A DNA stretch of 63,868 nt, counting the filler, from Stramenopiles sp. TOSAG23-6 (taxonomy: Eukaryota), in NCBI GenBank assembly GCA_900128565.1. It is 16 parts of 16 records of this genome, joined end to end, with 100 filler letters (N's around TTAATTAATTAA, not from the genome) between each part and the next. Parts side by side here need not be neighbours in the genome. Positions count along the whole stretch, not along the records: positions 8,054 to 11,977 come from LT637325.1; 15 more parts are not named here. The stretch is one strand, 5' to 3'. The notes beneath the pieces were generated by a model. It was not told where the DNA came from, searched no databases, and saw only the letters and a program-made list of their open reading frames with translations. Below, in pieces: positions 7,883 to 63,834 of this stretch; position 1 is the first letter of the stretch; each line of letters starts with the position of its first letter. The position numbers and the translations under genes are program-made.

Positions 7883-8115
7883 TTCAGTAAATTAATAATT
7901 CCAAATATATTTTATGGGATATTTGGAATAACAATCTAGCACAATTGTTCTAANNNNNNNNNNNNNNNNNNNNNNNNNNNNNNNNNNNNNNNNNNNNTTA
8001 ATTAATTAANNNNNNNNNNNNNNNNNNNNNNNNNNNNNNNNNNNNNNNNNNNNTTTTTTTTCGTACGAAATTTTGTACCTAACGATTTTTTTTTGAAATA
8101 TTTTTCTAAATACAC

Positions 8116-8300
8116 TTATGGCTAAAGACGTTCGCATCGCAAACGCTATTCTTGACAATAACTATCCTACATGCTCAAAAATTATGAGAGAGACATTATC
8201 TTTATATGAAAAAGCTGTTATTAAACAAGGAAAACAAGCTGATTATACTGAAGTTGTGAAACTTTTGGAAGATCTTTGTAGTGGTAATAAGCTTGAGTAG
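8116..8300 (+). CDS. Last exon of a 3-hydroxyisobutyrate/6-phosphogluconate-dehydrogenase-like protein
   Basis: LMAKDVRIA...G.QADYTEVVKLLE resembles the NAD_binding_11 C-terminus; preceded by a repeat-intron 3' end. Confidence 0.65.
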
Positions 8301-8390
8301 TGTTTGAAGATTTTTTTTGTAGTAGCAAAGCATAAAATCATCAAAGCATTACATTTTATACAATACAAAAAACAATAATCAACATCAATA

Positions 8391-9392
8391 TCATTCTGAA
8401 AACTTTATTTTTCTCAAACGTCCAGTAAAAATTACACCCGAGACTGCTTTTCGTAATCGTTTTCTGGCCAACATCTTCTTCATATTATCAATTGTGCGTG
8501 GAAGAACTGGCATAGTCTCTTTCGATGCGTTCGCAATCCAGTCGTGTTCTAGTAAAGTCTTTATAGTTGGCCTACTTTTGGGGTCAATATTCAAAATAGA
8601 TTTAATAAAGCCAATTGCTGTATCTGAAACGAGATTCCAATCTTCAGGATCATATTCTACGTCACCAATTTTGATTAATTCAAATAAATCCTCATCGTTA
8701 TCGGCATAAAAAGGTGTATACCCACACAATAGTACATATGCAACGACCCCAATGCTCCAGACATCGGCTGGTTTGCCATAGTTAGGTTTATTTTTTAAAC
8801 ACTCTGGGCAAAGATACATTGGTGTGCCAGCTGCTTCGTGAACTCCACCAAATTCGTCTTTACCAACGTCAACAGCAAGACCAAAGTCTACAAGTTTTAT
8901 AGGGGAGTCTATTGGACCTTCATCTGCAACTTTATTGACTAGCATGAGATTTTCGGGTTTTAAGTCTCGGTGTACAATTCCATTTGAATGGAGGTAATTA
9001 AGAGCATGAATCATACTTAGGATAACGCTGCGCGCATCTGATTCAGTATACTTTTCTCTTGTCACAATAGAATCAAATAATTCGCCACCTTCAATGAGCT
9101 CCGTCAAANTGTAAACGGCTTTCTTTGTTTGATAGTCGTCAACATAAGAAAGAATGTTAGGATGCTCTACTCGCTTCAGAATACTAATTTCGTGGTTTAA
9201 AATCTCTACCTCTTTTTGATCGAGCCCAATAATTGAACACGCTTTGACTGCAAGAGGATGTCCATCTGCCTTCCTATGACATAAAAAGACACCACCCGAC
9301 ATACCCGTCCCTATTTTTTCTCCAATTTTGTATTTCGCCGTGAGTTCAGCAGGAAATTCCGGATCAACTTTATTTGATAAACATAATCCCAT
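8391..9392 (-). CDS. CaMK-family Ser/Thr protein kinase
   Basis: IGTGMSG, AVK, HRDLKPEN, DFG, GTPMYLCPE, DVWSIG; C-terminal ARKRLRKAV regulatory helix; MGLC N-terminus (possible acylation). Confidence 0.95.
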   Translation of the reverse strand: MGLCLSNKVDPEFPAELTAKYKIGEKIGTGMSGGVFLCHRKADGHPLAVKACSIIGLDQKEVEILNHEISILKRVEHPNILSYVDDYQTKKAVYXLTELIEGGELFDSIVTREKYTESDARSVILSMIHALNYLHSNGIVHRDLKPENLMLVNKVADEGPIDSPIKLVDFGLAVDVGKDEFGGVHEAAGTPMYLCPECLKNKPNYGKPADVWSIGVVAYVLLCGYTPFYADNDEDLFELIKIGDVEYDPEDWNLVSDTAIGFIKSILNIDPKSRPTIKTLLEHDWIANASKETMPVLPRTIDNMKKMLARKRLRKAVSGVIFTGRLRKIKFSE

Positions 9393-9649
9393 CGTGTACT
9401 TTATTGAGGGTGATTTATCAAAATCAAAACTTTTGTTTCGGTATAAAAGATATAGTGCAATATCTTATTTGGGTATCGGTACCATTGCTTGTCTACCCAC
9501 GCACGTGTCCCACGTTGAAACGTTCATAAAGATTTCGTGTATTGCTTTTTTTGGAAAAGCTTTTTTGCTTTTGGAACTTTAGGCCACTGAAATTTTCTTA
9601 CTGAAAAGAAAAAAGAATATAATAGTAGATAGATATACAATATGATACT

Positions 9650-10423
9650 TTATATTTCACTAAGAGTAGCCACTGGAAACCAAGCAGATGTCTTATCGTC
9701 GAAACGAATTTTTGCAGAGGCGTCTGAAATGTCGATTTCAACAATTTTCCCTTTACTACCCAGATTTCTTTTACGAGCTTTGCCCCCTTTAGAATTATCC
9801 CAAAATAGTGTGGATTCACCACCACTTAATCTTGTAGATTCTATACACTGATATTTAGCCCAAGTCTCGTCAGTGGTGACGATAACTTTCATCTTTTTCT
9901 TAATCTTCTTCAGAGTGAGAAATTTAAAGTTTTCTGGTGCTTCAGGTGGGACAATTTTTGAATCCTCATCTAATTTTGCAAGAAGTAATTGTCTATGCTT
10001 AGTCTCCAACTCATCTAGTTTCTCTTCAATTTCTGAAATGCGAGAAAGAGCAGCTCTTTTTTTTGAGCCCTTGAGTTCTTCAAGCTCATAAAGTTCAGAC
10101 TGGAGCTTCTCGAAAAGTTTCAAGTCCAGCAAAGTTTTCTGCACGGTTTCAATTTTTGCTTGAATATTTGTTCTACCTGTATCATCCAGGCAATCACGTA
10201 ATTCAACTTGTAATTCGTCCATTTGAAGTTGAAGCGCTACACAATCGTCTTCGTCTTCTTCTGTATCTACGGCTTCCATGTCAAGATTGTGTAATTCTTC
10301 CAAGCACTGCTGCTCTGTCACCTGCTCAAGCTTTTCCGCACTCTCTCTACCAGTCAAGTAACTTTTTTCTTGAACAAGTGCCTCAATTTGAACTTCTAGT
10401 TCTTCCTTTGGTATATTTGACAT
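9650..10423 (-). CDS. Hypothetical acidic coiled-coil protein with SH3-like C-terminus
   Basis: 257-aa ORF; GKIVEID..D.SAKIRFDD...WFP. Confidence 0.6.
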   Translation of the reverse strand: MSNIPKEELEVQIEALVQEKSYLTGRESAEKLEQVTEQQCLEELHNLDMEAVDTEEDEDDCVALQLQMDELQVELRDCLDDTGRTNIQAKIETVQKTLLDLKLFEKLQSELYELEELKGSKKRAALSRISEIEEKLDELETKHRQLLLAKLDEDSKIVPPEAPENFKFLTLKKIKKKMKVIVTTDETWAKYQCIESTRLSGGESTLFWDNSKGGKARKRNLGSKGKIVEIDISDASAKIRFDDKTSAWFPVATLSEI

Positions 10424-10646
10424 GTTTCTGATGTAAAATATACTTCAAAATGAATCTTTTTTTTAGTGTAGTATACAAGTATGGTAGACTACGACTGCTA
10501 GTGGTACCTATAATAAGTATTTTTTTTTGCACTGACTCGGCGAGAGAATTGAATTCCAACATTTCGATTTGGCTTCCAGTCAAAAAAACAAAAGTCAAAA
10601 AAAAAAGGAAAGCGACTCGTGAGTCAAAAAAACAAAAAACAAGCAG

Positions 10647-10679
<33 letters not shown>

Positions 10680-10717
10680 TCCAATTCATATAAAATGATC
10701 TGTGCTTTTTTTATCTC

Positions 10718-11020
10718 ATGATCTCCAGTTTGTCTGAAAAAATACGCAATTACGGTACTGCTGTGGCTATAGGAGTTTTCATTGGTTCGGCCTTAACTAC
10801 TGGAATTACAGCTGGAATTAGTGCTTGGTGGGCCGTCTCTAAAGGTGTGCCCGCGCTTGCTTCTAAATTGAACAAGGGGTACTCTTCAATTCTATCTGCT
10901 GTAGAGTCTGGTGCTCGCGAAGTTGCGAAAGACGTTAAACCCGCGACTGTTGATCGCGTAGAATTATTGGAAAGACGTGTGGCTGAACTTGAAAAGTATC
11001 GGAATAGTTCATTACGATAG
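10718..11020 (+). CDS. Small hypothetical membrane protein
   Basis: 100-aa ORF with hydrophobic segment and C-terminal coiled coil LERRVAELE. Confidence 0.55.
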   Translation: MISSLSEKIRNYGTAVAIGVFIGSALTTGITAGISAWWAVSKGVPALASKLNKGYSSILSAVESGAREVAKDVKPATVDRVELLERRVAELEKYRNSSLR

Positions 11021-11025
11021 CAATA

Positions 11026-11859
11026 ATGGAAAAATTAATGAAAAAAATAGGTACTCTATTCAGTGTACGTTCACAGTCAAAGCAACAGAAATTAGGAGGG
11101 GATAACGTATTAATATCACAAGCCGAAAAAGATAAAGTTTTTGAAGTAGTTGTTCATGATCCCCTTGTCATTGATCATACTTCTGCTGTTGTGTTTTTGC
11201 TCTGGTTACGCGTAAGATTTTATTATTAATTTCAAATGTATTATTCAAATGCATGATTTAGATTCAAATGCATTGTTCAAATGTATTATTAATTGTATAA
11301 AATACTAACGAATCTCAAATTTGACTTTTGTTTTCACTAGAACATGGATTATCAACAGAAGAGGCCGCGTTTTCTCGTCTTGATTCTTTTGCTGATACAT
11401 CTTGTGTAATGTCTGACTTTGCTCCTGATATAGGTAACGCTGATCTTCAATCTTCTTTTCATGCTCTAACTCAGCATCCACTTCAACTTCCTTTATCACC
11501 TTCCTTATCACAACGGAAAGGGAATACAGTTCAACTTCCTTTATCATCTTCTTTATCACAACGGAAAGGAAATACAGTTGACCCTGCACCCAATAAAATA
11601 CGAAGTATGCCTGATAATGATATATTTTCACTTGAGCGTGAAACTGTGCTTGTCTTACTACAGAGAGATACCCGGGACCAATACAGAATGTTCCAAATTA
11701 TTGAGAGATTCCTTGAAGAACCAAACTTACTTTCATCACAACTCATCTGTCAGTTAGATCCCATTACTCAAGATTTACTATTGTTGCATTATTACGAGAT
11801 TTCGTATCTTATATTACGTGAAATTGTGTGCCGAAAATTTGATAGGGAAAAGAAAGCGC
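11026..11859 (+). CDS. FIBP: FGF intracellular-binding protein (FIBP)-like, 5' part; intron 11212-11345, next donor at 11860
   Basis: EVVVHDPLVID..VFLLWLR|GLSTEEA and DTRDQYRMFQIIERFLEEP.LL..QLICQLDP..Q.LLL.HYY match FIBP as I recall it. Confidence 0.8.
11212..11345 (+). other. GT-AT intron (134 nt) that skips an upstream AG
   Basis: CGC|GTAAGA...TACTAAC...TTTTCACTAGAACAT|GGA; AG at 11339-11340 gives a frameshift, AT gives LWLRGLS. Confidence 0.75.
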
Positions 11860-12076
11860 GTACGTTTTCATTATGAATTTCAAATTTATTTTTCTTTTCG
11901 TACGAAATGTTGTACCTAACAATTTTTTTTTTTTTGAGTTTTTATTTCGATACGTTTTCATTATGAATTTCAAATTTNNNNNNNNNNNNNNNNNNNNNNN
12001 NNNNNNNNNNNNNNNNNNNNNTTAATTAATTAANNNNNNNNNNNNNNNNNNNNNNNNNNNNNNNNNNNNNNNNNNN

Positions 12077-13806: not shown

Positions 13807-15852
13807 TTATAAACCCAACACTTTTGCTGCATCATCCAACAATTGAAACGATTTCAGATATGATTTTGATTGTTGTTGTTGAAGCATTTCTTCAACAACA
13901 CCACCAACAGCACATGATTGAACTTGTCTAACAAAAAAAATATATATATTTTTACAATTTTGAACATTTGTTAGGTATGAAATTTCGTATGAATTTTTTT
14001 TTTAAATAAATTTGAAATTCAAAATGAAAATGTACCTACAAAACTCCTGTAATTGTGACGCATATGCATCTTCATATACTTTACAACATCCTCCATGATC
14101 AGCATCATATGGTTTTTTATAGTCATAGTATGAAAAAAATATTTTTTTTTTTCAAAAAAATACGTTAGGTACAAAATTTTGTATTGATTTTTTTTTTTTT
14201 TTTNAAAAAAAAATCGTATGTACAAAATTTTGTATTAAAAAAAAAANAAATGAATGATAATCACGTACATATCCATAGACAATTCCATCTACATTGACTT
14301 GTTGTACATAACTGTCATGTGATTTATGATAATCAATTTCAACATTTGAAGTTGAATATTCAGAATCATTAGGGTTAGGGTTATTTTTGAAAAAATGTTG
14401 AATTTTTCCTTTTAAATGTATTATCGAATTATTTGTATCAAATGAACTTGATGATGTACACCATGTAATCTTTGAATTTGGAAAAAGCCAACAAAGTAAA
14501 TCAATATCATGACAATACATTGAAAAAAAAATATTTCAAATTTGAGTTTTTTTTTTTGTTAGGTACAAAATTAACTATAAAAAAAAAATTAAATTTTTGA
14601 AAATTTTGAAAATTGTGATGAAAATGTACACACGAATTCCGTAATACAAATGACATATTTGTATCAGTTGGTACAGGATCAAATGAATGAATATAAATAT
14701 TTTTGGGTGCATTCTTTGTTAAAATAGCAGCTTTTATATATACTGTAAAAAAAATATTTTTCGATTTTTTTTTGAAATTTTTTATGTTAGGTACAAAATT
14801 TCGTACGAAAAAAAAAATATAGGAAAAAAAATTTATGTTGTATGAAAAAATACATGTCGATACAATCTGAGAAATTCTTTGTCAAATCTTCGATGAAAAC
14901 CAACCATTAAAGTTAAAGGAAAATTTGTGTTTCGTATTGCTTTTTCACGTGTTTTAGCAACTAAATGAAAATTTGTTACAGGTTTTTCTACCAAAACATA
15001 AATTGTGAAAAAAAATTTCAAAAAAACAAATTTTTTTTGTTAGGTACAAAATTTCGTATGAAAAAAAAAAAGAAAAATCAATTTCAGTAACATACATGTA
15101 ATCCAGCTTCAAGACATGAAATAGCTTGTTTTTCGTGTAATGCATCAGGTGTACAGATATACACTGCATTTACATGATTTGAATTATTCTTAATGTCACC
15201 TCTACTAAGGACAGATTCTTGAAATGATGAACCAATACATTGTGAAAAATTTCAAAAAAAAAAAAAAATTAGGTACAAATTTTCATACTTAAAAAAAAAA
15301 ATTCGAAATTGAATGTTAAAAACGTATCTAGATCTTGTAAATGGTGTCAACATTTTAACTTGTTTCGATAAGTATGTTCTACTTGGCTGTTTTGGAATAG
15401 CTTGTATAAATGTTCCAAAGGTACCATTTATCATAAAGAAATATTTCAAATGTTAAAATTTGTTAGGTACAAAAAAAAAATTCAAAAAAAAATTTTGAAT
15501 TTTTTTTTTTTTTTTGAAAAAAAAAATAAATTTAAAATTCATGATGTAAACGTACTGCACCGATAGGACGAATAGGAATGGCAAGATTTTGTATTGTACT
15601 TGAATTAGTGTATTCATCACCTGTTTGATTTTCCCATTTTTTTATATTTTGATGTGTCAAATTACTCAATTTTCTTTTTTTCAAATTTTGATTTTTCAAA
15701 TTTTCATCTTTTATTTCACTGACTTTAAAACGACACGTGTCACTATATTGAAGTGGTTGAAGTGGAACAACTTCACCTAATTGTTGTGAACGTGCTGCAG
15801 ATGATGCAACATATTGAGCTAAAGCGCAATCAGAGGCTGAAATTGGCCAACT
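13807..15852 (-). CDS. Gfo/Idh/MocA (inositol-2-dehydrogenase-like) oxidoreductase, 5'-truncated, 7 complete introns (15555-15426, 15327-15235, 15095-14998, ~14853-14738, 14629-14515, 14268-14125, 14035-13928)
   Basis: Joined exons give IGA|GTFG, AVYICTPDALH...EAGLH|VLVEKP, MVGFHRRFD, NSC|CHDID; 6 of 7 introns end in AT. Confidence 0.85.
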
Positions 15853-24996: not shown

Positions 24997-27924
24997 CTAA
25001 ACATTTGTCATTAAATTTTTTGCTTCTTTGAAAAATTTCACAAATTCATCATCTGAACTCTCGACAACACTCATTAAACTCTGACACGCTTTTCTTAACG
25101 ACGATTCATCAGTCAAAGTTTCATTGCTGTGTGTCTTGCGCAAATCTTTCTCGAACTTTTCCGATGCCTTTTTAGCACAATCCACAACAGAATTTGGTAA
25201 TCGTGCCAATCGAGCAACATTAATACCATAACTTTTCGGACACGCGCCACTTTGTAGAGTATAAAGGAAAGTGACCCTCTGCTCTGGGTCTGCAACATCA
25301 ACATAGCTAGACATATGACCTAACTGTACACGAGGGTTGGATGTAAATCGGTCGACTAGATTATAGTAATGTGTTGAAAATAAAGTACGGCAGCACTTTT
25401 CTTGGGATAAATATTCCAACACAGCTGATGCTATAGCAGCGCCATCAAATGTGGACGTTCCACGACCTAATTCATCAATAATTAAAAGAGATTTACCTGT
25501 CGCTTGACGAAGCATTTCCGATGTTTCACTTAACTCTACAAAGAAAGTAGATTGGCCTTCCATTAATTTGTCACTTGCACCAAGTCGAGTAAATATGCGA
25601 TCCACAGGTGTCAACTCCATACTTTCTGCTGGAACATAACAACCAATTTGAGCCATAATTACTGCGATACAAGTCTGGCGAAGCAAAGTGGATTTACCAC
25701 CCATATTCGGTCCTGTCAGAAGTAAAGCAGCTGGAGATTCACCACCAAGAACTACACTATTTGGTATGAAATCACTCCCACTAAACGTCTCAACAACACA
25801 CGGATGCCAACCTTTCGTCACACGCAAAATATCTTTTGCGTCTTTTGAAGTTTTCTTAATAAAGGAAGGACGACACATAGTACCCGCTGAATTCTTTGAC
25901 ACAAGAGCTAAAGAAGAAATACAATCAAGTAATGCAATAGCTCTTGAGATTTCCTGCCATAACTTGCTATCAGAGTCGAAACGGAAGAAAAGTCTACGTG
26001 TCACATCTCGCAGCGAACTCGCCAGTCTTTCTTCGGCAATACCAAGGTCTTCAATCATACCCTCTAACTCACGTGTGCGATACCTTCGAGAACCTTTTTT
26101 CTTACTTGATACAGTATATTCATTAGGAACTTTTGNNNNNNNNNNNNNNNNNNNNNNNNNNNNNNNNNNNNNNNNNNNNNNNNNNNNNNNNNNGTTGTTA
26201 TTTTTCCCAAAGTAAATGATTCGTTGCCCTATACGTTTTTCTTGTTCTTTTTTATATTCTTCGAGTGCATTTTCAGCTTCCTTTACAGAATCTGAAGCAG
26301 CGTCATATTCTTCGTCTGTACCTGTTGGTGGAATAATTGTACCTGTCTCGAGAGCTTTTCTTTTATTTCCAATCATCACATCAAAATTTGAAAGTTTTTC
26401 TCTGATATCCGGAAATGAAACTACACCAACACCTGCAATGTTAACGCTAGAAACTTTATCAGATTCACCGGGGAGAATCGCACAAAGGAGAGGTGATTTT
26501 ATGGATGATTGATCAAATCNNNNNNNNNNNNNNNNNNNNNNNNNNNNNNNNNNNNNNNNNNNNNNNNNNNNNNNNNNNNNNNNNNATTTTCACCTTTCGC
26601 TTTCCATATATAACTTCTTCGTACATAACTGCGCGGCTTCCAGGATGGTGTTTATCTTTAACATCTTGCGGCACACCAAGTGTGTGTACATTTTGTAGTA
26701 ATCGTTCAATATCAGGTAACTGTCGAATATCCTGTATTTTGGAAAAATATTTCAAAATGTTTTTGTTAGGTACAAAAGTCTTATAAAAAAATAAATTCGA
26801 AATTGAAAAAAAATAAAACATACATTTCTCACTGCTTGCAAAGTTTCATCCAACTCCATAAGTTCTTCAATAGTATCCAAACGAAGATTGATATCTTTTA
26901 CTAACGAAAGGGGAGTACAAATCCATTGCTTTAATAGTCTACGGCCCATAGGACTAAAAGTATGATTAATAATATTAAATAAACTACCCTTAGCACGCTC
27001 CTTTACACTTCCTGTAGCGCCTTCTGCTACAAAAACTTCGAGATTTGTGAGAGTTGTCCCATCTAATGCAAGAGGAGATTCAGATGTTTCAGCGGAACTC
27101 ATTGCTTTTTCAATAGCAAGTGTGTTTTTATCCTGAACTACACTTCCTTCTTTCAGTGACTTATGATCAACAGACATCCATTCAAACCGTCTATGAGAGA
27201 CGAGATTTTTAGCCACGAAACATCTTCTAAGTAAACAGAGTGCCCCACCAAGCGCAGCTATTCCAGCAGTACCTAAAATTTCATCACTGCCATTCGCCTT
27301 CATCATTTCTTGCAACACAACTGGCCATGAATCTATCGAATCACCAAGAAAAGTTTTTTTTGATAAGAGTTCTCTAGAATATTCCGTTGCCCAACACTTA
27401 TCTTCCGCTGGTGGAAGTCGTGTGGTCAAAACCCCAGGGGCATGAACAGCAACCATTTTTTTGGTTCCAGGGCTTAACCCCTTTGACATAAAAACAATCT
27501 CACTCGGTTGAACTTGTACTAAAAGAGTGACTAGACGAGATCTTGAAACTGGATCATCCAAAAACTGTCCCATTTTAAAAATACCAGAAGCTGCATCAAT
27601 AACGACAAATCCCAACATACCTACATCTTTGTCATTTCCTATAGACCTGCCTTTTGCAGATATTCCAGACATTGCTGGTGCTGATACATCACTTTCATTA
27701 TTTGAAACATCAGATTCAAATATCGAGAGGAGAAGTTGTGGCGGATTTCCATCCTTATCAGCTTTATCGAGTACACTGAAAGTGCGAGTACCAGCGGATA
27801 ATACGGAACAAATCTCACGTTGTACGACCTTTCTCTTTGGCCCTCGACAAGTTTTGTTATACTCTTTCATTTGTTGAGGTGTTTCTGTCTGTTCTACTCG
27901 GGCTACTCGATATCCTCGACTTAC
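24997..27924 (-). CDS. MSH6: DNA mismatch repair protein MSH6, 5'-truncated; intron 26823-26732 (GT-AG) and an upstream intron end apparently at TT (27925)
   Basis: GYRVARVEQTETP, LDGTTLTNLE, LPDIERLL, LTGPNMGGKST, STFFVELSET, DELGRGTSTFDG, CPKSYG. Confidence 0.95.
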
Positions 27925-28165: not shown

Positions 28166-28894
28166 ATGTGGGGATTTGCCCTGTTCGTGACACGTGTAAA
28201 TTACCCCAAGAGCAGTTCCGACATCTACTGTAGCCAGAGCGCCAGTATTACAGTGGTGTAAAATATTTGCCCCATTTGGAACAACAGAAGCACCTAACTC
28301 ACCCATGTACTGTGAAAAAATTTGTAGAAAAAAATCGTTAGGTATGGAATTTCGTACAAAAAAAAAATTAAAATTAAATTTTATAAGGTACATGCGTCGG
28401 TTTATCTGAATATCATCATTGGCAAGTTCTTCAGCTTTTTTGTATAAACAAGTGACAAAGTCCTCTGCAGTTAATGAATGTTTGAGAGATTTCGCTAGAC
28501 GTAGCATAATGCTAGTGGCCCATGTTAAATTTACTGCAGTTGGTCGGGCAGAATCTAAGCATTTCTTTGCTGTACATAAGATATTTCGCAAGTCGTCCTG
28601 TGTCACTGTTTCGGGGTTTTGTTTAAAGCAGCTTTGGGCTGCCAATACCATACCATACGCACCAGCCACTCCAATTGCTGGTGCTCCACGAACAATCATT
28701 GTACGGATCGCAAAGGCAGTTTCTTCATATGTCGTACAGGTGAATACTTCTAGCTTGGAGGGAAGTAAAGGTTGGTTAATCAAATTCAAGCAACCTTGAC
28801 CGATAATTTTTTTTCCATCCTTGAACTCCCACCACACCGATCGCTTAGCGATTGTAGACTCCGTGAATACTGGTGATGGCTTTGAGTAATCCAT
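28166..28894 (-). CDS. MRI1: Methylthioribose-1-phosphate isomerase, 3'-truncated; intron 28391-28305
   Basis: IRTMIVRGAPAIG, SARPTAVNLTWA, HHCNTGALAT..GTALGVI. Confidence 0.95.
28305..28391 (-). other. GT-AT intron (87 nt, stop-free 3n)
   Basis: CGCAT|GTACCT...ATACCTAAC...TTTTTTCACAGTACAT|GGGT; join gives INRRMGELGA; the internal CAG is out of frame. Confidence 0.85.
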
Positions 28895-31650: not shown

Positions 31651-31894
31651 GTACGTTTTTTTTTTTTTTTTTTTTTGAATTTTTTTTTTTTCGTACGAAA
31701 TTTTGTACCTAACAAAATATTTTTTTTTTTTTGAAATATTTTTCCAAAATACATTGAGACTTCAATGGCTGCCTTTTCAAGCAGAAGAAAAAGAATCCAA
31801 TGGATCTGTTGATGTGACTGTAATGAAAGATCTTTTATCAACCGAACTTGAAATGTTACGACTTTCCGTAGCAAAATTATACGTTTTAAAAAAA

Positions 31895-46513: not shown

Positions 46514-47034
46514 AGACGTTTATACCAAAAAGTATAAAAAAACGTGTGAAATCTTAAAAACATTTATGCGCAATTGCTCCGCTATGAAAAATGGAATCTG
46601 TTTTTCGATCTTTTTGATTTTTGAGACATTTCTTTGAGTGTGTCTGAGTGTTAAATATAATATAAAAACCATTTTGGAACAAAGCTGTTATTGATACACA
46701 AAATTCCATTCCAACCATGTACTCCATGTTATCAATTTTCAGAAATGATAAAACCAAACAAATTATTGATATACGTACAAGATTATTGACAATATGAATA
46801 AAGAATAATTTTCATTGAAATAAAAAATTTTATGATGGGAATTATACCCAGTATATAATATATACAAAGCTAACAACTACTAATTACAGAATATCAGCTT
46901 CATTTGTTTCTGTAGTACTTCATCCTACTAGTAAACACAAAATTTAGTCACACATTTGGATCACATGTAGTGATTGACGTATTAATAGTATTAATAGATT
47001 CCGTAGCAATTTTTGTACCTAATTTAAATTTTCA

Positions 47035-47068
47035 TTAGGGTTTTAGGGTTTTAGGGTTTTTTAGGGTT
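47035..47068 (+). repeat. Interstitial telomere-like (TTTTAGGG)n, ~4 copies
   Basis: TTAGGGTTTTAGGGTTTTAGGGTTTTTTAGGG. Confidence 0.65.
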
Positions 47069-60022: not shown

Positions 60023-60098
60023 GATAATAAAAAAACTGTTAGGTACAAAATTTCGTACGAAAAAAAAATTCAAAAAAAAAAATTAATTTTGGAAACAA

Positions 60099-60575
60099 AC
60101 TTTGTTTTGATGTCCATCCCAAAGTGAATGCATTCATTTGGTCCACATTAGCAGTCATTGAAATCCAATTTTGATCATCTGTTGCAGTGTTTGGTTCACC
60201 ATCTTTTGATAGGTGAAATAAATTTTTATTTTCCATTGCATAATTCATTTTATCGGAACAAAGCACAGAATTGTCCAAAACATAATCTAAATTATCAACA
60301 TTGCTAAATACACCAATAGAAAGATTCTTATATTGTGCAGGTGCTTGAATAATTAAATCTGCAAAACCGATTTTACCACTACCAGGTGGAACATATGCAA
60401 ATTTACCTAAAACACGAAAGCAATCAGATGGTCCTGAGCCATATATTTGAATATTTTCAGGTTCAATGATAATCGAATGTACTGCATCTATAGAAAAAAA
60501 AAGAGCATACAAGATGAAATATGTCGTTAATTTGTGTTTCTTTTTACCATGACCAAGTAAAGCTATGTTTTGCAT
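60099..60575 (-). CDS. First exon of a secreted/membrane protein, possibly GPR180/TMEM145-like (mirror copy 63282-63758)
   Basis: Signal peptide; FRVLGKFAY; ends at a repeat-intron copy. Confidence 0.5.
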
Positions 60576-60965
60576 ATCGAAGTATTGTGATTACAATAGT
60601 CTTCTCTGGATCAAATCTAAATAGTTTGATAGTACTATGTAAAGGTTGGTAATAGTTGTAGTTGTAGTTATAGTTGTAGTAGTATTAAAAACTATACTAG
60701 TATATAGATTGAAGTAGTATGTGAATAAAGTAACCGTCGGTCCGTTTTTTTAAAAGTTTTTTGTAAACAAAGTATAAGCTAGGGTTAGGGTTTTTGTTGT
60801 ATGACTGACTGTTTGATTATTCGAGAGAGCATTTCGAGAGATTGTGAAAAACGTTGTTATTCCATTGTTTTCACATACGTACTACTACGTATTCATATGA
60901 ATCGTATCTACATGTAACACTAGTGTAATTGTAAATATTTCATTGTATTGTGTATTTGATAGAAA

Positions 60966-61756
60966 ATGTCATCATCATCGGTACTTGAGGAAAATAAAAA
61001 ATTCTCTGTCAAAGAATTGAAAGCAATCATTGTTTCTCATGGTTTTTCATATACTGATTGCATAACAAAGAGTGATTTGTTGGAAAGAGCCACAGAAGCT
61101 CAACGTAATCCACAGAAAGAAACAAAAACAGCAAGTATTCCAACAGTCCAAACGTTTCATCAAAGTCAACAAAAGATTGGAGTGTTTGACTGTGAAGTTG
61201 TAAATACATGTTCTGGAGATGAATGCGACTTTGCCATTGTCTTTTTTCATGGATACAACGCTTCCGCTGCCAACTTTGCACCTTTAGCCAAAACACTTGG
61301 GAAACATCCCATATTATCACATAGAGCTCAACGCATTCGCTGGATTTTCCCTCAAGCGAGTCCAAAACCTGAATGGTGGCCGCTTAATTTGATGGAATGG
61401 CAAATGGCCATGCTTGTAGGTTTTTTTTTTTTTTTCATTTGTTAGGTACAAAATTTCGTACGAAAAAAAAATTTTTCATTTTTTTTTTTGTATACAATTT
61501 CATACTTAACCACTAAAATTTTTTTTTTTTTTTTTTGAAAAATACAGTCAGGTACTGATGCCGTAGGTAAACTTCTACGAACAACTCCTGAAGGATTTCG
61601 TGTTGCATCAACAAAAAGTTGTCAATTTATTTCGGATGTAGCACAATATTTAAAAATACCTGTATCCAAAATTATTATTGGAGGGTTTAGTCAAGGAGCA
61701 ATGATGTCAGTTGAAACAGCTTTGTCTCATACTGAACAATGTTTAGCTTTATTAGT
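60966..61756 (+). CDS. Phospholipase/carboxylesterase (acyl-protein thioesterase-like) with N-terminal SAP-like motif; intron 61416-61547 (GT-AG); mirror copy 62101-62891
   Basis: SVKELK.I...G..Y..C..K.DL; IVFFHGY, WIFPQA, WWPL, IIIGGFSQGAM. Confidence 0.88.
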
Positions 61757-63834
61757 GTATGTTTTTTTTTTTTGAAAAAAAAAAAAAAAAAAAAAAATTT
61801 NAAAATTTTTTTTTCGTAGTAATTTTTNTACCTAAAAAAAAAAAATTAATTTTTCAAAAAAAAAAAAAAAAAATTTCAAAATGTTTTTTTTCGTAGAAAC
61901 TTTTGTACCTAAGAAAAAAAAAAAAATTAATTTTTTTTTTTTTCTTAGGTACAAAAGTTTCTACGAAAAAAAACATTTTGAAATTTTTTTTTTTTTTTTT
62001 TGAAAAATTAATTTTTTTTTTTTAGGTANAAAAATTACTACGAAAAAAAAATTTTNAAATTTTTTTTTTTTTTTTTTTTTTTCAAAAAAAAAAAACATAC
62101 ACTAATAAAGCTAAACATTGTTCAGTATGAGACAAAGCTGTTTCAACTGACATCATTGCTCCTTGACTAAACCCTCCAATAATAATTTTGGATACAGGTA
62201 TTTTTAAATATTGTGCTACATCCGAAATAAATTGACAACTTTTTGTTGATGCAACACGAAATCCTTCAGGAGTTGTTCGTAGAAGTTTACCTACGGCATC
62301 AGTACCTGACTGTATTTTTCAAAAAAAAAAAAAAAAAATTTTAGTGGTTAAGTATGAAATTGTATACAAAAAAAAAAATGAAAAATTTTTTTTTCGTACG
62401 AAATTTTGTACCTAACAAATGAAAAAAAAAAAAAAACCTACAAGCATGGCCATTTGCCATTCCATCAAATTAAGCGGCCACCATTCAGGTTTTGGACTCG
62501 CTTGAGGGAAAATCCAGCGAATGCGTTGAGCTCTATGTGATAATATGGGATGTTTCCCAAGTGTTTTGGCTAAAGGTGCAAAGTTGGCAGCGGAAGCGTT
62601 GTATCCATGAAAAAAGACAATGGCAAAGTCGCATTCATCTCCAGAACATGTATTTACAACTTCACAGTCAAACACTCCAATCTTTTGTTGACTTTGATGA
62701 AACGTTTGGACTGTTGGAATACTTGCTGTTTTTGTTTCTTTCTGTGGATTACGTTGAGCTTCTGTGGCTCTTTCCAACAAATCACTCTTTGTTATGCAAT
62801 CAGTATATGAAAAACCATGAGAAACAATGATTGCTTTCAATTCTTTGACAGAGAATTTTTTATTTTCCTCAAGTACCGATGATGATGACATTTTCTATCA
62901 AATACACAATACAATGAAATATTTACAATTACACTAGTGTTACATGTAGATACGATTCATATGAATACGTAGTAGTACGTATGTGAAAACAATGGAATAA
63001 CAACGTTTTTCACAATCTCTCGAAATGCTCTCTCGAATAATCAAACAGTCAGTCATACAACAAAAACCCTAACCCTAGCTTATACTTTGTTTACAAAAAA
63101 CTTTTAAAAAAACGGACCGACGGTTACTTTATTCACATACTACTTCAATCTATATACTAGTATAGTTTTTAATACTACTACAACTATAACTACAACTACA
63201 ACTATTACCAACCTTTACATAGTACTATCAAACTATTTAGATTTGATCCAGAGAAGACTATTGTAATCACAATACTTCGATATGCAAAACATAGCTTTAC
63301 TTGGTCATGGTAAAAAGAAACACAAATTAACGACATATTTCATCTTGTATGCTCTTTTTTTTTCTATAGATGCAGTACATTCGATTATCATTGAACCTGA
63401 AAATATTCAAATATATGGCTCAGGACCATCTGATTGCTTTCGTGTTTTAGGTAAATTTGCATATGTTCCACCTGGTAGTGGTAAAATCGGTTTTGCAGAT
63501 TTAATTATTCAAGCACCTGCACAATATAAGAATCTTTCTATTGGTGTATTTAGCAATGTTGATAATTTAGATTATGTTTTGGACAATTCTGTGCTTTGTT
63601 CCGATAAAATGAATTATGCAATGGAAAATAAAAATTTATTTCACCTATCAAAAGATGGTGAACCAAACACTGCAACAGATGATCAAAATTGGATTTCAAT
63701 GACTGCTAATGTGGACCAAATGAATGCATTCACTTTGGGATGGACATCAAAACAAAGTTTGTTTCCAAAATTAATTTTTTTTTTTGAATTTTTTTTTCGT
63801 ACGAAATTTTGTACCTAACAGTTTTTTTATTATC

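What the first reader, a model, noticed from the sequence alone, without database searches (positions are those of the whole stretch)
11212..11345. A nearer AG is bypassed in favour of AT (FIBP intron; also MRI1 and Gfo)
Seen: this intron has a textbook GTAAGA donor, TACTAAC branch point and ...CACTAG, and it lacks the CGTACG core. Splicing at the AG frameshifts. Splicing 5 nt later at AACAT| gives LWLRGLSTEEA, which aligns without gaps to FIBP LWLDGYSVTDA as I recall it. The CAG in TCACAGTACAT (28305-28312) and in TACAGTATAT (~14738-14745) is likewise out of frame. Inference: the rule 'first AG after the branch point' is broken, so AT use is a property of the splicing machinery and not only of young repeats.
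Basis: partly seen in the sequence, partly recalled or inferred. Interest (0 to 1): 0.82.

Follow-up and report, generated by a model that had tools for sequence, protein, structure and literature searches.

The report
Intron ends at AT, skipping AG
In the FIBP gene of an unidentified marine eukaryote, an intron that is a worn copy of a transposon-like intron family must be cut at an AT five bases past a normal-looking AG to keep the protein intact, a kind of splicing already described in larvacean tunicates, but no RNA read here shows the junction.

Summary
The sequence facts hold. The intron starts GTAAGA at 11212, has TACTAAC at 11303, a TAG ending at 11340 and a CAT ending at 11345. It contains no CGTACG.

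With the GT donor, the AG acceptor gives a stop after 22 codons. The AT acceptor gives LWLR|GLSTEEA. This was the best of 369 in-frame donor/acceptor pairs against a profile of 42 FIBP homologues, at 120.5 bits. The GC(11210)–AG alternative scored 113.5 bits.

The MRI1 and Gfo cases also hold.

The inference "not only young repeats" is weakened. The first 34 bases of the FIBP intron match the start of the window's intron-repeat family at 28 of 34 positions, in the same register. Its end resembles the family's …TTTTCACAATACAT| end. It is a decayed family member, not an independent intron.

In 17 of 27 family copies the 3′ end is AT.

Direct RNA proof is missing, because no contig bridges the intron.

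Transposon-derived introns with 3′AT ends (YAY as the last three bases) are published for Fritillaria larvaceans (PMC13326754). This is therefore a moderately interesting new member of a known kind.

The parts
11026..11211 (+). FIBP exon 1 (62 codons, ends ...DPLVIDHTSAVVFLLWLR)
   Evidence: Translation. On its own it scores 13.6 bits against the profile of 42 homologues, aligned to the N-terminal motif.
11212..11345 (+). FIBP intron 1, 134 nt, GT...AT; a decayed copy of the window's intron-repeat family
11212..11217 (+). 5' splice site GTAAGA, in the same register as the family's GTAYGT
   Evidence: 28 of 34 ungapped matches to the family start at 11860.
11218..11242 (+). Stretch homologous to the family's 5' 25-mer (3 mismatches)
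   Evidence: 9 matches in the window against 0.00 expected in 100 shuffles. This one lies at +6 from the GT, as in family copies.
11231..11287 (+). Four loosely tandem TTCAAATG(Y)ATT units (starts 11231, 11244, 11263, 11276), an internal expansion of a family motif
   Evidence: Read by eye. No repeat tool was run on it.
11303..11309 (+). Branch-point-like TACTAAC (the family has TACCTAAC); the putative branch A at 11308 is 33 nt before 11341 and 38 nt before 11346
11338..11340 (+). TAG that is not the productive acceptor
   Evidence: frameshift and a stop after 22 codons with the GT donor.
11343..11345 (+). CAT, the inferred 3' splice site (a YAY triplet as the last three intron bases)
   Evidence: It is the best of the 34 candidate ends 11322-11355 against a 14-nt weight matrix of 16 family ends (-1.4 against -16.8 bits for the TAG), though weak in absolute terms.
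11346..11859 (+). FIBP exon 2
   Evidence: Seawater RNA contigs cover 11342-11492, 11354-11588 and 11355-11611.
11860..11977 (+). FIBP intron 2: a young family copy with the CGTACG core, followed by a second partial copy and cut by the end of the piece
   Evidence: (E=1.9e-10).
28305..28391 (-). MRI1 intron, 87 nt, GT...CAT, a family copy; the CAG at 28312-28310 is bypassed
   Evidence: chain residues 9-136 and 136-183 of 1t5o_A flank a 29-codon insert; E=9.1e-11.
14738..14853 (-). Gfo/Idh/MocA-like gene intron, 116 nt, GT...TAT, a family copy; the CAG at 14745-14743 is bypassed
   Evidence: 409-codon against 224-codon open frame; a neighbouring exon hits PF01408, E=8.1e-5, 23.7 bits, just under the cut-off of 24.
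26732..26823 (-). Family copy in a MutS/MSH6-like gene whose last base is G, not T (…AATACAG|), at the family's terminal position
   Evidence: The junction reads ...AVRN|DIRQLPDIERLL. That this is a MutS motif is recalled, not tested.

Best explanation
FIBP intron 1 (11212-11345) is an old, mutated copy of a short (about 90-120 nt) transposon-like intron family, an 'introner', that litters this genome.

The family supplies its own splicing signals:
- a GTAYGT 5' splice site;
- a (TAC)CTAAC branch site;
- a T-rich tract;
- a fixed end, ...TTTTCACAATACAT| or ...CCAAAATACAT|.

The final AT of that end matches the AT that usually precedes the element in the exon. Removing the element plus one AT therefore restores the reading frame.

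The spliceosome of this organism accepts A-T at the last two positions, and at the same position also A-G and perhaps A-C. In the FIBP copy, base changes and a one-base insertion turned ...CACAATACAT into ...CACTAGAACAT. This created a TAG five bases upstream of the inherited end. Productive splicing still uses the inherited CAT|.

Shown: the sequence anatomy, the family relationship, and the frame and homology requirement for AT in three genes.

Inferred: that the cell really splices there, and how exclusively. Which factor reads the AT is unknown. A U2AF-type reader would be an analogy to Fritillaria and was not tested.
For: **The AT junction fits FIBP homologues best.**
- With the GT donor, only the AT acceptor joins the exon 1 frame (...LWLR) to the exon 2 frame that carries Pfam FIBP (E=1.3e-15). 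The AG acceptor stops after 22 codons.
- Against a profile of 42 FIBP homologues (from 72 phmmer hits), the GT..AT product scores 120.5 bits. That ties with two non-GT shifts of the same 134-nt deletion as the best of 369 in-frame, stop-free donor/acceptor pairs.
- GC(11210)..AG(11340) scores 113.5 bits.
- Joining the exons adds about 16 bits over the exons scored apart (120.5 against 90.6 + 13.6).

**The donor register is fixed by family homology.**
- The 25-mer at +6 has 3 mismatches. There are 9 such hits in the window against 0.00 expected.
- The intron start matches the family start at 28 of 34 positions. All 15 window positions with 24 or more matches are family intron starts.

**The family ends in AT.**
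- Of 27 copies that reach the model's 3' end, 17 end AT, 3 end AG, 1 ends AC and 2 end TT; 4 are ambiguous or unreadable.

**AT ends are needed in other genes.**
- MRI1: an exact 87-nt insert relative to 1t5o_A.
- Gfo: seven consecutive introns give a 409-codon frame only with non-AG ends. Six of the seven end AT.
- In 6 of the 7 copies where a single phase stays open near the intron's end, the YAT| end is in frame.

**RNA structure.** No stable fold hides the AGs (z = 0.38, 1.12, -0.14).

**Precedent.** 3'AT ends with a YAY triplet, and an introner origin, are published for Fritillariid larvaceans (PMC13326754, section 21 and the first of two parts of the discussion, section 26, read; review PMC11282704, passages).
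Against: - No RNA contig or read bridges the intron.
- The one contig that reaches the junction (run X2, 151 nt, starting at 11342) carries ACAT in front of GGATT. Its only 2 differences lie at 11372 and 11462. It therefore comes from unspliced RNA or DNA, or from an AG-spliced molecule, and not from an AT-spliced one.
- Family profile HMMs do not pick up the FIBP intron. It is absent from 80 hits at E<=10 with the 12-copy model. With the 6-copy subfamily model the best hit is E=0.72, over 11304-11337 only.
- The CAT end scores -1.4 bits on the family end matrix. It is the best of the 34 ends tested but not a positive match.
- The 7-bit homology margin over GC-AG is moderate, and one-residue insertions do occur in real proteins.
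- One family copy (31651-31754) puts a TGA at the junction when spliced GT..AT.
Confidence: 0.7

Rival explanations
1. Canonical-style rescue. The donor is the GC at 11210 and the acceptor is the TAG at 11340. This is a 131-nt GC-AG intron and gives ...LWL-QH-GLSTEEA, one residue longer.
For: - It is in frame and stop-free, and still scores 113.5 bits.
- AG is the universal acceptor.
- The X2 contig shows ACAT attached to exon 2, as this model predicts.
Against: - It scores 7.0 bits below the AT product and puts an insertion into the W-L-x-G motif of the profile.
- The donor context TAC|GCGTAA is poor. CGC|GTAAGA sits exactly where the family's GTAYGT sits relative to the conserved 25-mer.
- At least two other genes in the window need AT ends that no alternative GT or GC donor rescues.
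Confidence: 0.08
2. Both acceptors are used. The TAG at 11340 competes with the CAT at 11345, 5 nt away. A share of transcripts is AG-spliced, frameshifted and presumably degraded. Only the AT form is productive. This does not exclude the best explanation.
For: - The X2 contig starts at 11342 with ACAT, which is compatible with an AG-spliced molecule.
- The same family position accepts G as well as T (3 of 27 copies end AG), so AG is recognisable to this machinery.
- No RNA structure hides the TAG.
Against: - The same contig is equally explained by unspliced RNA or DNA.
- X1 and X2 hold hundreds of contigs of intron-family sequence (640 and 548 laid; depth 13865 in bin 8054-8184). Intronic or genomic sequence is therefore plentiful in those libraries.
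- No joint at 11340 was listed.
Confidence: 0.25
3. Artefact. A one-base assembly error near 11341-11345, or a decaying pseudogene, makes a normal AG intron look out of frame.
For: The window is a draft with many single Ns and short N runs.
Against: - Independent seawater RNA contigs from two studies match 11342-11611 with only two substitutions and no indel (tables 3, 4, 8).
- Both exons keep long open frames with FIBP homology.
- The same AT-end pattern recurs in 17 of 27 family copies and in two other genes checked by homology or frame.
Confidence: 0.04

Closest known systems
Non-canonical, transposon-derived introns of Fritillariid larvacean tunicates (Henriet et al. 2019, not held here; Soo et al. 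2026, PMC13326754)
   Same: - Short introns descended from mobile elements.
- The 3' end is most often AT: 44% of F. pellucida and 34% of F. borealis introns.
- A YAY triplet forms the last three intron bases, and often a YAY stands just before the 5' splice site. Here CAT|GT...CAT| in MRI1 and ...CAT| in FIBP.
- A T-rich tract is kept.
- AG, AT and AC ends coexist.
   Different: - Here the 5' end is a canonical GTAYGT or GTAAGA, not the AG of the main F. borealis classes.
- FIBP has CGC, not YAY, before its 5' site.
- The organism is not identified. Weak hints point to a protist: the best FIBP relative comes from the EukProt collection, and the protein-atlas neighbours are diatom and plant clusters.
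- The text I read says nothing about an upstream AG being bypassed. Figures, supplements and the 2019 paper could not be seen.
Introners of marine protists and others (Huff et al. 2016, seen only as a reference entry; Gozashti et al. 2022, PMC9860276; 2025, PMC12130899)
   Same: - Many near-identical short introns in unrelated genes.
- The element carries some splice signals and borrows others from the flanking duplicated bases, so that excision restores the frame (passages).
   Different: - Those surveys started from annotated introns and treat AG and AC as the 3' ends (passages).
- An AT-ending family would probably be missed by them.
- I found no paper that pairs 'introners' with 'GT-AT' (0 papers).
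U12-type (minor) AT-AC introns
   Same: Non-AG 3' ends; a strongly conserved branch-site box ending in TAAC.
   Different: The 5' site here is GTAAGA or GTAYGT, not (A/G)TATCCTT. The branch box lies 31-50 nt from the 3' end, not about 10-20 nt. Those U12 consensus values are recalled..
Amoebophrya non-canonical introners (Farhat et al. 2021, PMC7789003; search listing and a passage in the review PMC11282704 only)
   Same: A marine eukaryote with repeat-derived introns that break the GT-AG rule.
   Different: Its boundaries are described as highly variable, with 3-5 nt duplications. Here there is one fixed GT...YAT pattern.

Membership tests
The window's intron-repeat (introner) family: is FIBP intron 1 a member? 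| 5' arm GTAYGTTTTCATTATGAATTTCAAATTTATT in register with the splice site | tested here: met
   28 of 34 ungapped matches. The 25-mer has 3 mismatches at +6 from the GT; 9 hits in the window against 0.00 expected.
The window's intron-repeat (introner) family: is FIBP intron 1 a member? | Palindromic core TTTCGTACGAAA followed by TTTTGTACCTAAC | tested here: not met
   No CGTACG in 11212-11345. Only a degraded TTGTATAAAATACTAAC aligns there.
The window's intron-repeat (introner) family: is FIBP intron 1 a member? | Significant match to a profile of the whole element | tested here: not met
   Absent from nhmmer hits at E<=10 with the 12-copy model. E=0.72 over 11304-11337 with the 6-copy subfamily model, and E=1.9 with the 17-copy model.
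The window's intron-repeat (introner) family: is FIBP intron 1 a member? | 3' end ...TTTTCAC A(A/G)T AYAT| | tested here: inconclusive
   TTTTCACTAGAACAT| needs a one-base gap. It is the best of the 34 ends tested but scores -1.4 bits.
Introner (transposon-derived intron family) as a class | Many similar copies inside unrelated genes that carry their own splice signals | tested here: met
   45 nhmmer hits at E<=0.001 in 64 kb, of which 12 are training copies and several are mirror copies in the palindromic last piece. Copies lie in the FIBP, MRI1, Gfo-like, MutS-like and other genes.
Introner (transposon-derived intron family) as a class | Terminal inverted repeats and/or target-site duplication | tested here: inconclusive
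   By eye: GTATGTTTT at the start against AAAATAC at the end, and AT on both sides. The base before each AT does not match between the two sides, so a duplication longer than 2 bp is not supported. No statistical test was run.
Fritillariid YAY-type non-canonical introns | YAY triplet as the last three intron bases | tested here: met
   CAT at 11343-11345. The 17 AT-ending family copies end CAT, TAT or, in one case, AAT.
Fritillariid YAY-type non-canonical introns | YAY triplet just upstream of the 5' splice site (described as frequent, not obligatory) | tested here: not met
   FIBP has CGC before the GT. MRI1 has CAT, and many family copies have NAT.
Fritillariid YAY-type non-canonical introns | The host is a Fritillariid larvacean with duplicated or chimeric U2AF genes | not testable with these tools
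   No genome is held for the window. The taxon hints are weak and point elsewhere.
U12-type intron | (A/G)TATCCTT 5' site and a TCCTTAAC box 10-20 nt from the 3' end (recalled consensus) | tested here: not met
   GTAAGA at the 5' end; TACTAAC lies 36 nt before the last intron base.
FIBP protein family (PF05427) | Pfam match above the gathering score | tested here: met
   58.1 bits against a cut-off of 21, on exon 2 residues 99-170. 72 phmmer relatives at E<=0.001.

The most novel reading that the evidence does not exclude
An unidentified marine eukaryote, possibly a protist rather than a larvacean, has a major spliceosome that sets the 3' cut by a transposon-borne end motif (…CA[A/G]NAYA followed by T, G or C) at about 31-50 nt from a CTAAC branch site. 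It would do this instead of taking the first AG, and it would ignore a good YAG five bases upstream. If the host is not a Fritillariid, this would be an independent, convergent origin of AT-ending splicing, driven by an introner invasion that annotation-based surveys would probably miss.
Probability: 0.3. Interest if true: 0.75.

Novelty: new member of a known kind. Interest (0 to 1): 0.42.

Why it matters
If RNA confirms it, three genes in one 64-kb sample show that a usable YAG inside the normal acceptor zone loses to an AT. That would be a clean natural test case for how the second step of splicing chooses its site in organisms that have relaxed the AG rule.

It also matters in practice. 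Gene finders that insist on AG will frameshift or truncate most genes of this genome. The closest FIBP relative in the protein library lacks its N-terminal motif, which may or may not be such an error.

The decayed FIBP copy shows which parts of the element stay conserved once the repeat core has eroded: the 5' site, CTAAC, the T-tract, TTTTCAC and the final CAT. These parts are candidates for the real signals.

Tried and rejected
**RNA evidence**
- The look-up of sequencing runs gave only seawater metatranscriptome contigs with word shares of 0.05-0.16.
The repeat on 8054-11977 laid 4 runs, but nothing covers 11212-11341 apart from cross-mapping repeat contigs, and no joint at the intron was listed. 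I draw no conclusion from the uncovered part.
- Protein word searches for a transcript-derived FIBP found nothing at near, longer or shorter lengths. The shorter search was restricted to residues 1-60 of exon 2. The longer search also missed P0002, which exists, so these blanks are weak.
- A metagenome contig scan found 144 pattern matches, none of them a relative. An earlier attempt found the machine busy.

**Family membership and mechanism**
- Profile HMMs of the intron family did not detect the FIBP intron. I rely instead on the anchored 5' match.
- Hiding of the AG by RNA structure is rejected: the folds are no better than shuffles.
- A simple 75-nt flank frame test was uninformative for 7 of 14 copies, where two phases stayed open. 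It was replaced by the whole-gene test and the PDB alignment.

**Identifying the organism**
- No whole genome is held.
- Rfam found only one tRNA.
- A DRG protein search timed out.
- The protein-atlas neighbours (diatom-rich and plant-rich clusters) and the EukProt origin of the best FIBP relative are hints only.

**Literature and other tools**
- The 2019 Current Biology paper on F. borealis is not held.
- Supplements and figures could not be seen. They may already show GT/AT classes, the element family or AG bypass.

Full report
**What the window is.**
The 63,868 bases are 16 pieces of about 3.9 kb, joined by N44-TTAATTAATTAA-N44 spacers. The FIBP piece is 8054-11977, and the gene is cut off at its end. 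GC content is mostly about 24-39% per 2-kb window, with one window at 45%. No whole genome is held.

**The observation.**
- Exon 1 (11026-11211) reads ...HDPLVIDHTSAVVFLLWLR.
- The intron opens with GTAAGA at 11212. It has TACTAAC at 11303, a TAG ending at 11340 and a CAT ending at 11345, and it contains no CGTACG.
- Exon 2 from 11346 reads GLSTEEAAF... and is open to 11873. It carries Pfam FIBP (58.1 bits, E=1.3e-15).
- Reading from 11341 gives a stop after 22 codons.

All statements of fact in the finding are correct.

**Which junction is real?**
A phmmer scan of 1.84 billion representative proteins gave 72 relatives at E<=0.001. Of these, 42 carry an N-terminal motif of the form DP..(I/V)D....(F/Y)..W(L/V)xG(L/Y/H/K)(S/T)..EA. 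I picked them with a regular expression, so the spacing in that set is partly by construction.

I built a profile from the 42. I then scored all 369 in-frame, stop-free products obtainable with donors at 11196-11225 and acceptors at 11318-11365.
- The 134-nt deletion that yields LWLR|GLSTEEA is best, at 120.5 bits. Of the three equivalent cuts that give this protein, only 11212..11345 starts with GT.
- The joined product scores about 16 bits more than the two exons scored apart, because the motif spans the junction. The profile consensus there is lWldGlseeea.

Homology therefore favours AT by 7 bits, which is moderate and not overwhelming.

**The donor is fixed independently.**
The window is full of one short intron family. 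Its layout is:

(N)AT|GTAYGTTTT(CATTATGAATTTCAAATTTATT)T-run TTTCGTACGAAATTTTGTACCTAAC T-run GAAATATTTTTCCAAAATACAT| (or TTTTTCACAATACAT|)

- A 12-copy profile finds 45 places at E<=0.001 in 64 kb.
- The family's 5' 25-mer, with up to 3 mismatches, occurs 9 times against 0.00 expected. One occurrence is 11218-11242, at +6 from the FIBP GT, as in true copies.
- The first 34 bases of the FIBP intron match the copy at 11860 at 28 of 34 positions, ungapped.
- Across all 127,670 positions on both strands, every one of the 15 positions with 24 or more matches is a family intron start.
- Further in, TTGTATAAAATACTAACGAAT lines up with TTCGTACGAAATTTTGTACCTAACGAT. CTCAAATTTGA...TTTTCACTAGAACAT| lines up with ...TTTGAAAT...TTTTCACAATACAT|.

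So the FIBP intron is a decayed family member. The palindromic core is eroded, a TTCAAATGYATT unit is expanded to four copies (by eye), and one base is inserted near the end.

Against this, whole-element profiles do not recover it. Its CAT end scores only -1.4 bits on a matrix of 16 family ends. That is still the best of the 34 ends tested, against -16.8 for the TAG.

**AT ends elsewhere.**
- Of 27 family copies that reach the 3' end of the model, 17 end AT, 3 end AG, 1 ends AC and 2 end TT; 4 are ambiguous or unreadable. Twelve of the 27 were training copies.
- MRI1: the intron is 87 nt and in frame, so the read-through ORF could be aligned to PDB chain 1t5o_A. Query residues 33-168 match chain 9-136, and query 197-244 match chain 136-183. 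Exactly 29 codons are extra, which is the GT(28391)...CAT(28305) intron. The CAG ending at 28310 would remove 82 nt. A CG...AG cut of the same length also fits the protein length but has no plausible donor.
- Gfo-like gene: removing seven consecutive family introns gives a 409-codon frame out of 445 codons. Six of the seven end AT and one ends TAG. Taking the CAG at 14743 instead of the TAT at 14738 drops the longest frame to 224 codons. One exon hits PF01408 at E=8.1e-5, at 23.7 bits against a cut-off of 24.
- In the 75-nt flank test, the YAT| end was in frame in 6 of the 7 copies with a single open phase. The exception, 31651-31754, makes a TGA at the junction. Seven further copies were uninformative.

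Only 2 of the 17 AT-ending copies have an AG within 10 nt of the end. These are the MRI1 and Gfo-like copies. In both, the family's CACAAT has become CACAGT or TACAGT, so these AGs are secondary mutations.

**RNA.**
Only seawater metatranscriptome contigs were offered. Contigs from two studies match exon 2 with two substitutions: 11354-11588 in X1 and 11355-11611 in X3. The substitutions are 11372 T>G (Phe to Leu) and 11462 T>C (silent). The organism or a close strain is therefore in those samples and exon 2 sequence is present in the RNA libraries, which may also contain DNA.

Nothing bridges the intron. One 151-nt X2 contig starts at 11342 with ACAT intact. It stems from unspliced RNA or DNA, or from an AG-spliced molecule. 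Intron-family sequence is very abundant in X1 and X2 (640 and 548 contigs laid), so unspliced or genomic material is present there. The question of actual usage stays open.

**Mechanism.**
Shown:
- The element brings a 5' site, a CTAAC box and a T-tract.
- Its end is fixed 31-50 nt after the branch A.
- The last base can be T, G or C at the same position.
- An AT usually stands before the element in the exon, so removing the element plus one AT restores the frame.

Inferred:
- The spliceosome reads the end by context and position and tolerates T at -1.
- In FIBP the derived TAG, 33 nt from the branch A, loses to the inherited CAT at 38 nt.
- No RNA fold explains the bypass.

From recalled work on mammalian acceptor choice, acceptors less than about 6 nt apart compete rather than being taken in order. 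The bypass therefore needs no new scanning rule. It needs only that AT be a competent acceptor here.

**Comparison with what is known.**
Soo et al. 2026 (PMC13326754; section 21 and the first of two parts of the discussion, section 26, read) report the following for Fritillariid larvaceans:
- 3'AT is the commonest end (44% in F. pellucida, 34% in F. borealis).
- A YAY triplet forms the last three intron bases.
- An introner origin is proposed.
- Diverged U2AF paralogues bind non-canonical 3' ends.

A review (PMC11282704, passages) states that the exonic triplet before the element formed the 3' site. The present family fits this logic, with a canonical GT start.

Whether the host is a Fritillariid cannot be told. 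The best FIBP relative (P0002, 65% identity over 75 residues) comes from the EukProt collection, and another relative is from Mallomonas. The protein-atlas neighbours of two conserved proteins are diatom- and plant-rich clusters.

Large introner surveys assume AG or AC ends (PMC12130899, passages). No held paper pairs 'introners' with 'GT-AT'. The 9 papers that hold 'GT-AT', 'introns' and 'transposable' and the 15 listed of 23, by their titles and the starts of their abstracts, do not describe such a family.

**Verdict.**
- The AT junction is well supported by homology and by family anatomy, but is not seen in RNA.
- The claim that this intron shows AT use outside the repeats is not supported, because it is one of the repeats.
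- I file it as a new member of a known kind, with moderate interest.

Noticed in passing
window 1-63868: The window is not one locus. It is 16 pieces of about 3.9 kb joined by N44-TTAATTAATTAA-N44 spacers, so genes at piece ends (such as FIBP at 11977) are cut artificially.
   Followed up: yes
15235-15327 (-); also 11950 and 55233 (+): One family intron in the Gfo-like gene starts ATACGT, not GTACGT, and still has to be removed at exactly that base to keep the 409-codon frame. It is a candidate AT...AT intron. Two further ATACGT-starting copies sit directly behind a first copy, in tandem.
   Followed up: partly
26732, 24512, 52542 (AG); 8115 (AC); 6765, 27925 (TT): At the family's terminal position the last base is G in 3 copies and C in 1. 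Two copies end CTT. Whether the TT copies are spliced at all is unknown.
   Followed up: partly
31651-31754 (+): Splicing this copy GT...CAT puts AAT|TGA at the junction, and an ATG-led open frame starts 12 nt downstream. Either the stop codon is completed by splicing, or the element lies between two genes.
   Followed up: no
about 60036-63821: Family hits come in mirror pairs whose coordinates always sum to 123857 (for example 61471/62386, 60073/63784, 61975/61882). Most of the last piece is therefore a perfect palindrome centred near 61928. This may be an assembly artefact or a real inverted duplication.
   Followed up: partly
8054-8184 and 11853-11977: In seawater RNA runs X1 and X2 the intron-family sequence has summed contig depths of 13865 and 304, with hundreds of contigs carrying different flanks. 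Intron or genomic copies of this family are abundant in those samples.
   Followed up: no
about 47030-47065 (+): A short internal run of TTTTAGGG-like units (…TTAGGGTTTTAGGGTTTTAGGGTTTTTTAGGG…) lies next to a family-like TACCTAAT.
   Followed up: no
P0002 (closest FIBP relative, 652 aa): It lacks the N-terminal DP..ID...WLxG motif that 42 other relatives have. Its gene model may have missed a first exon, conceivably for the same splice-site reason. This was not tested.
   Followed up: no
11372 and 11462: All three runs with contigs covering FIBP exon 2 (X1, X2, X3) share two differences from the window: T>G (Phe to Leu) and T>C (silent). This points to a closely related strain in the sea samples.
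   Followed up: partly
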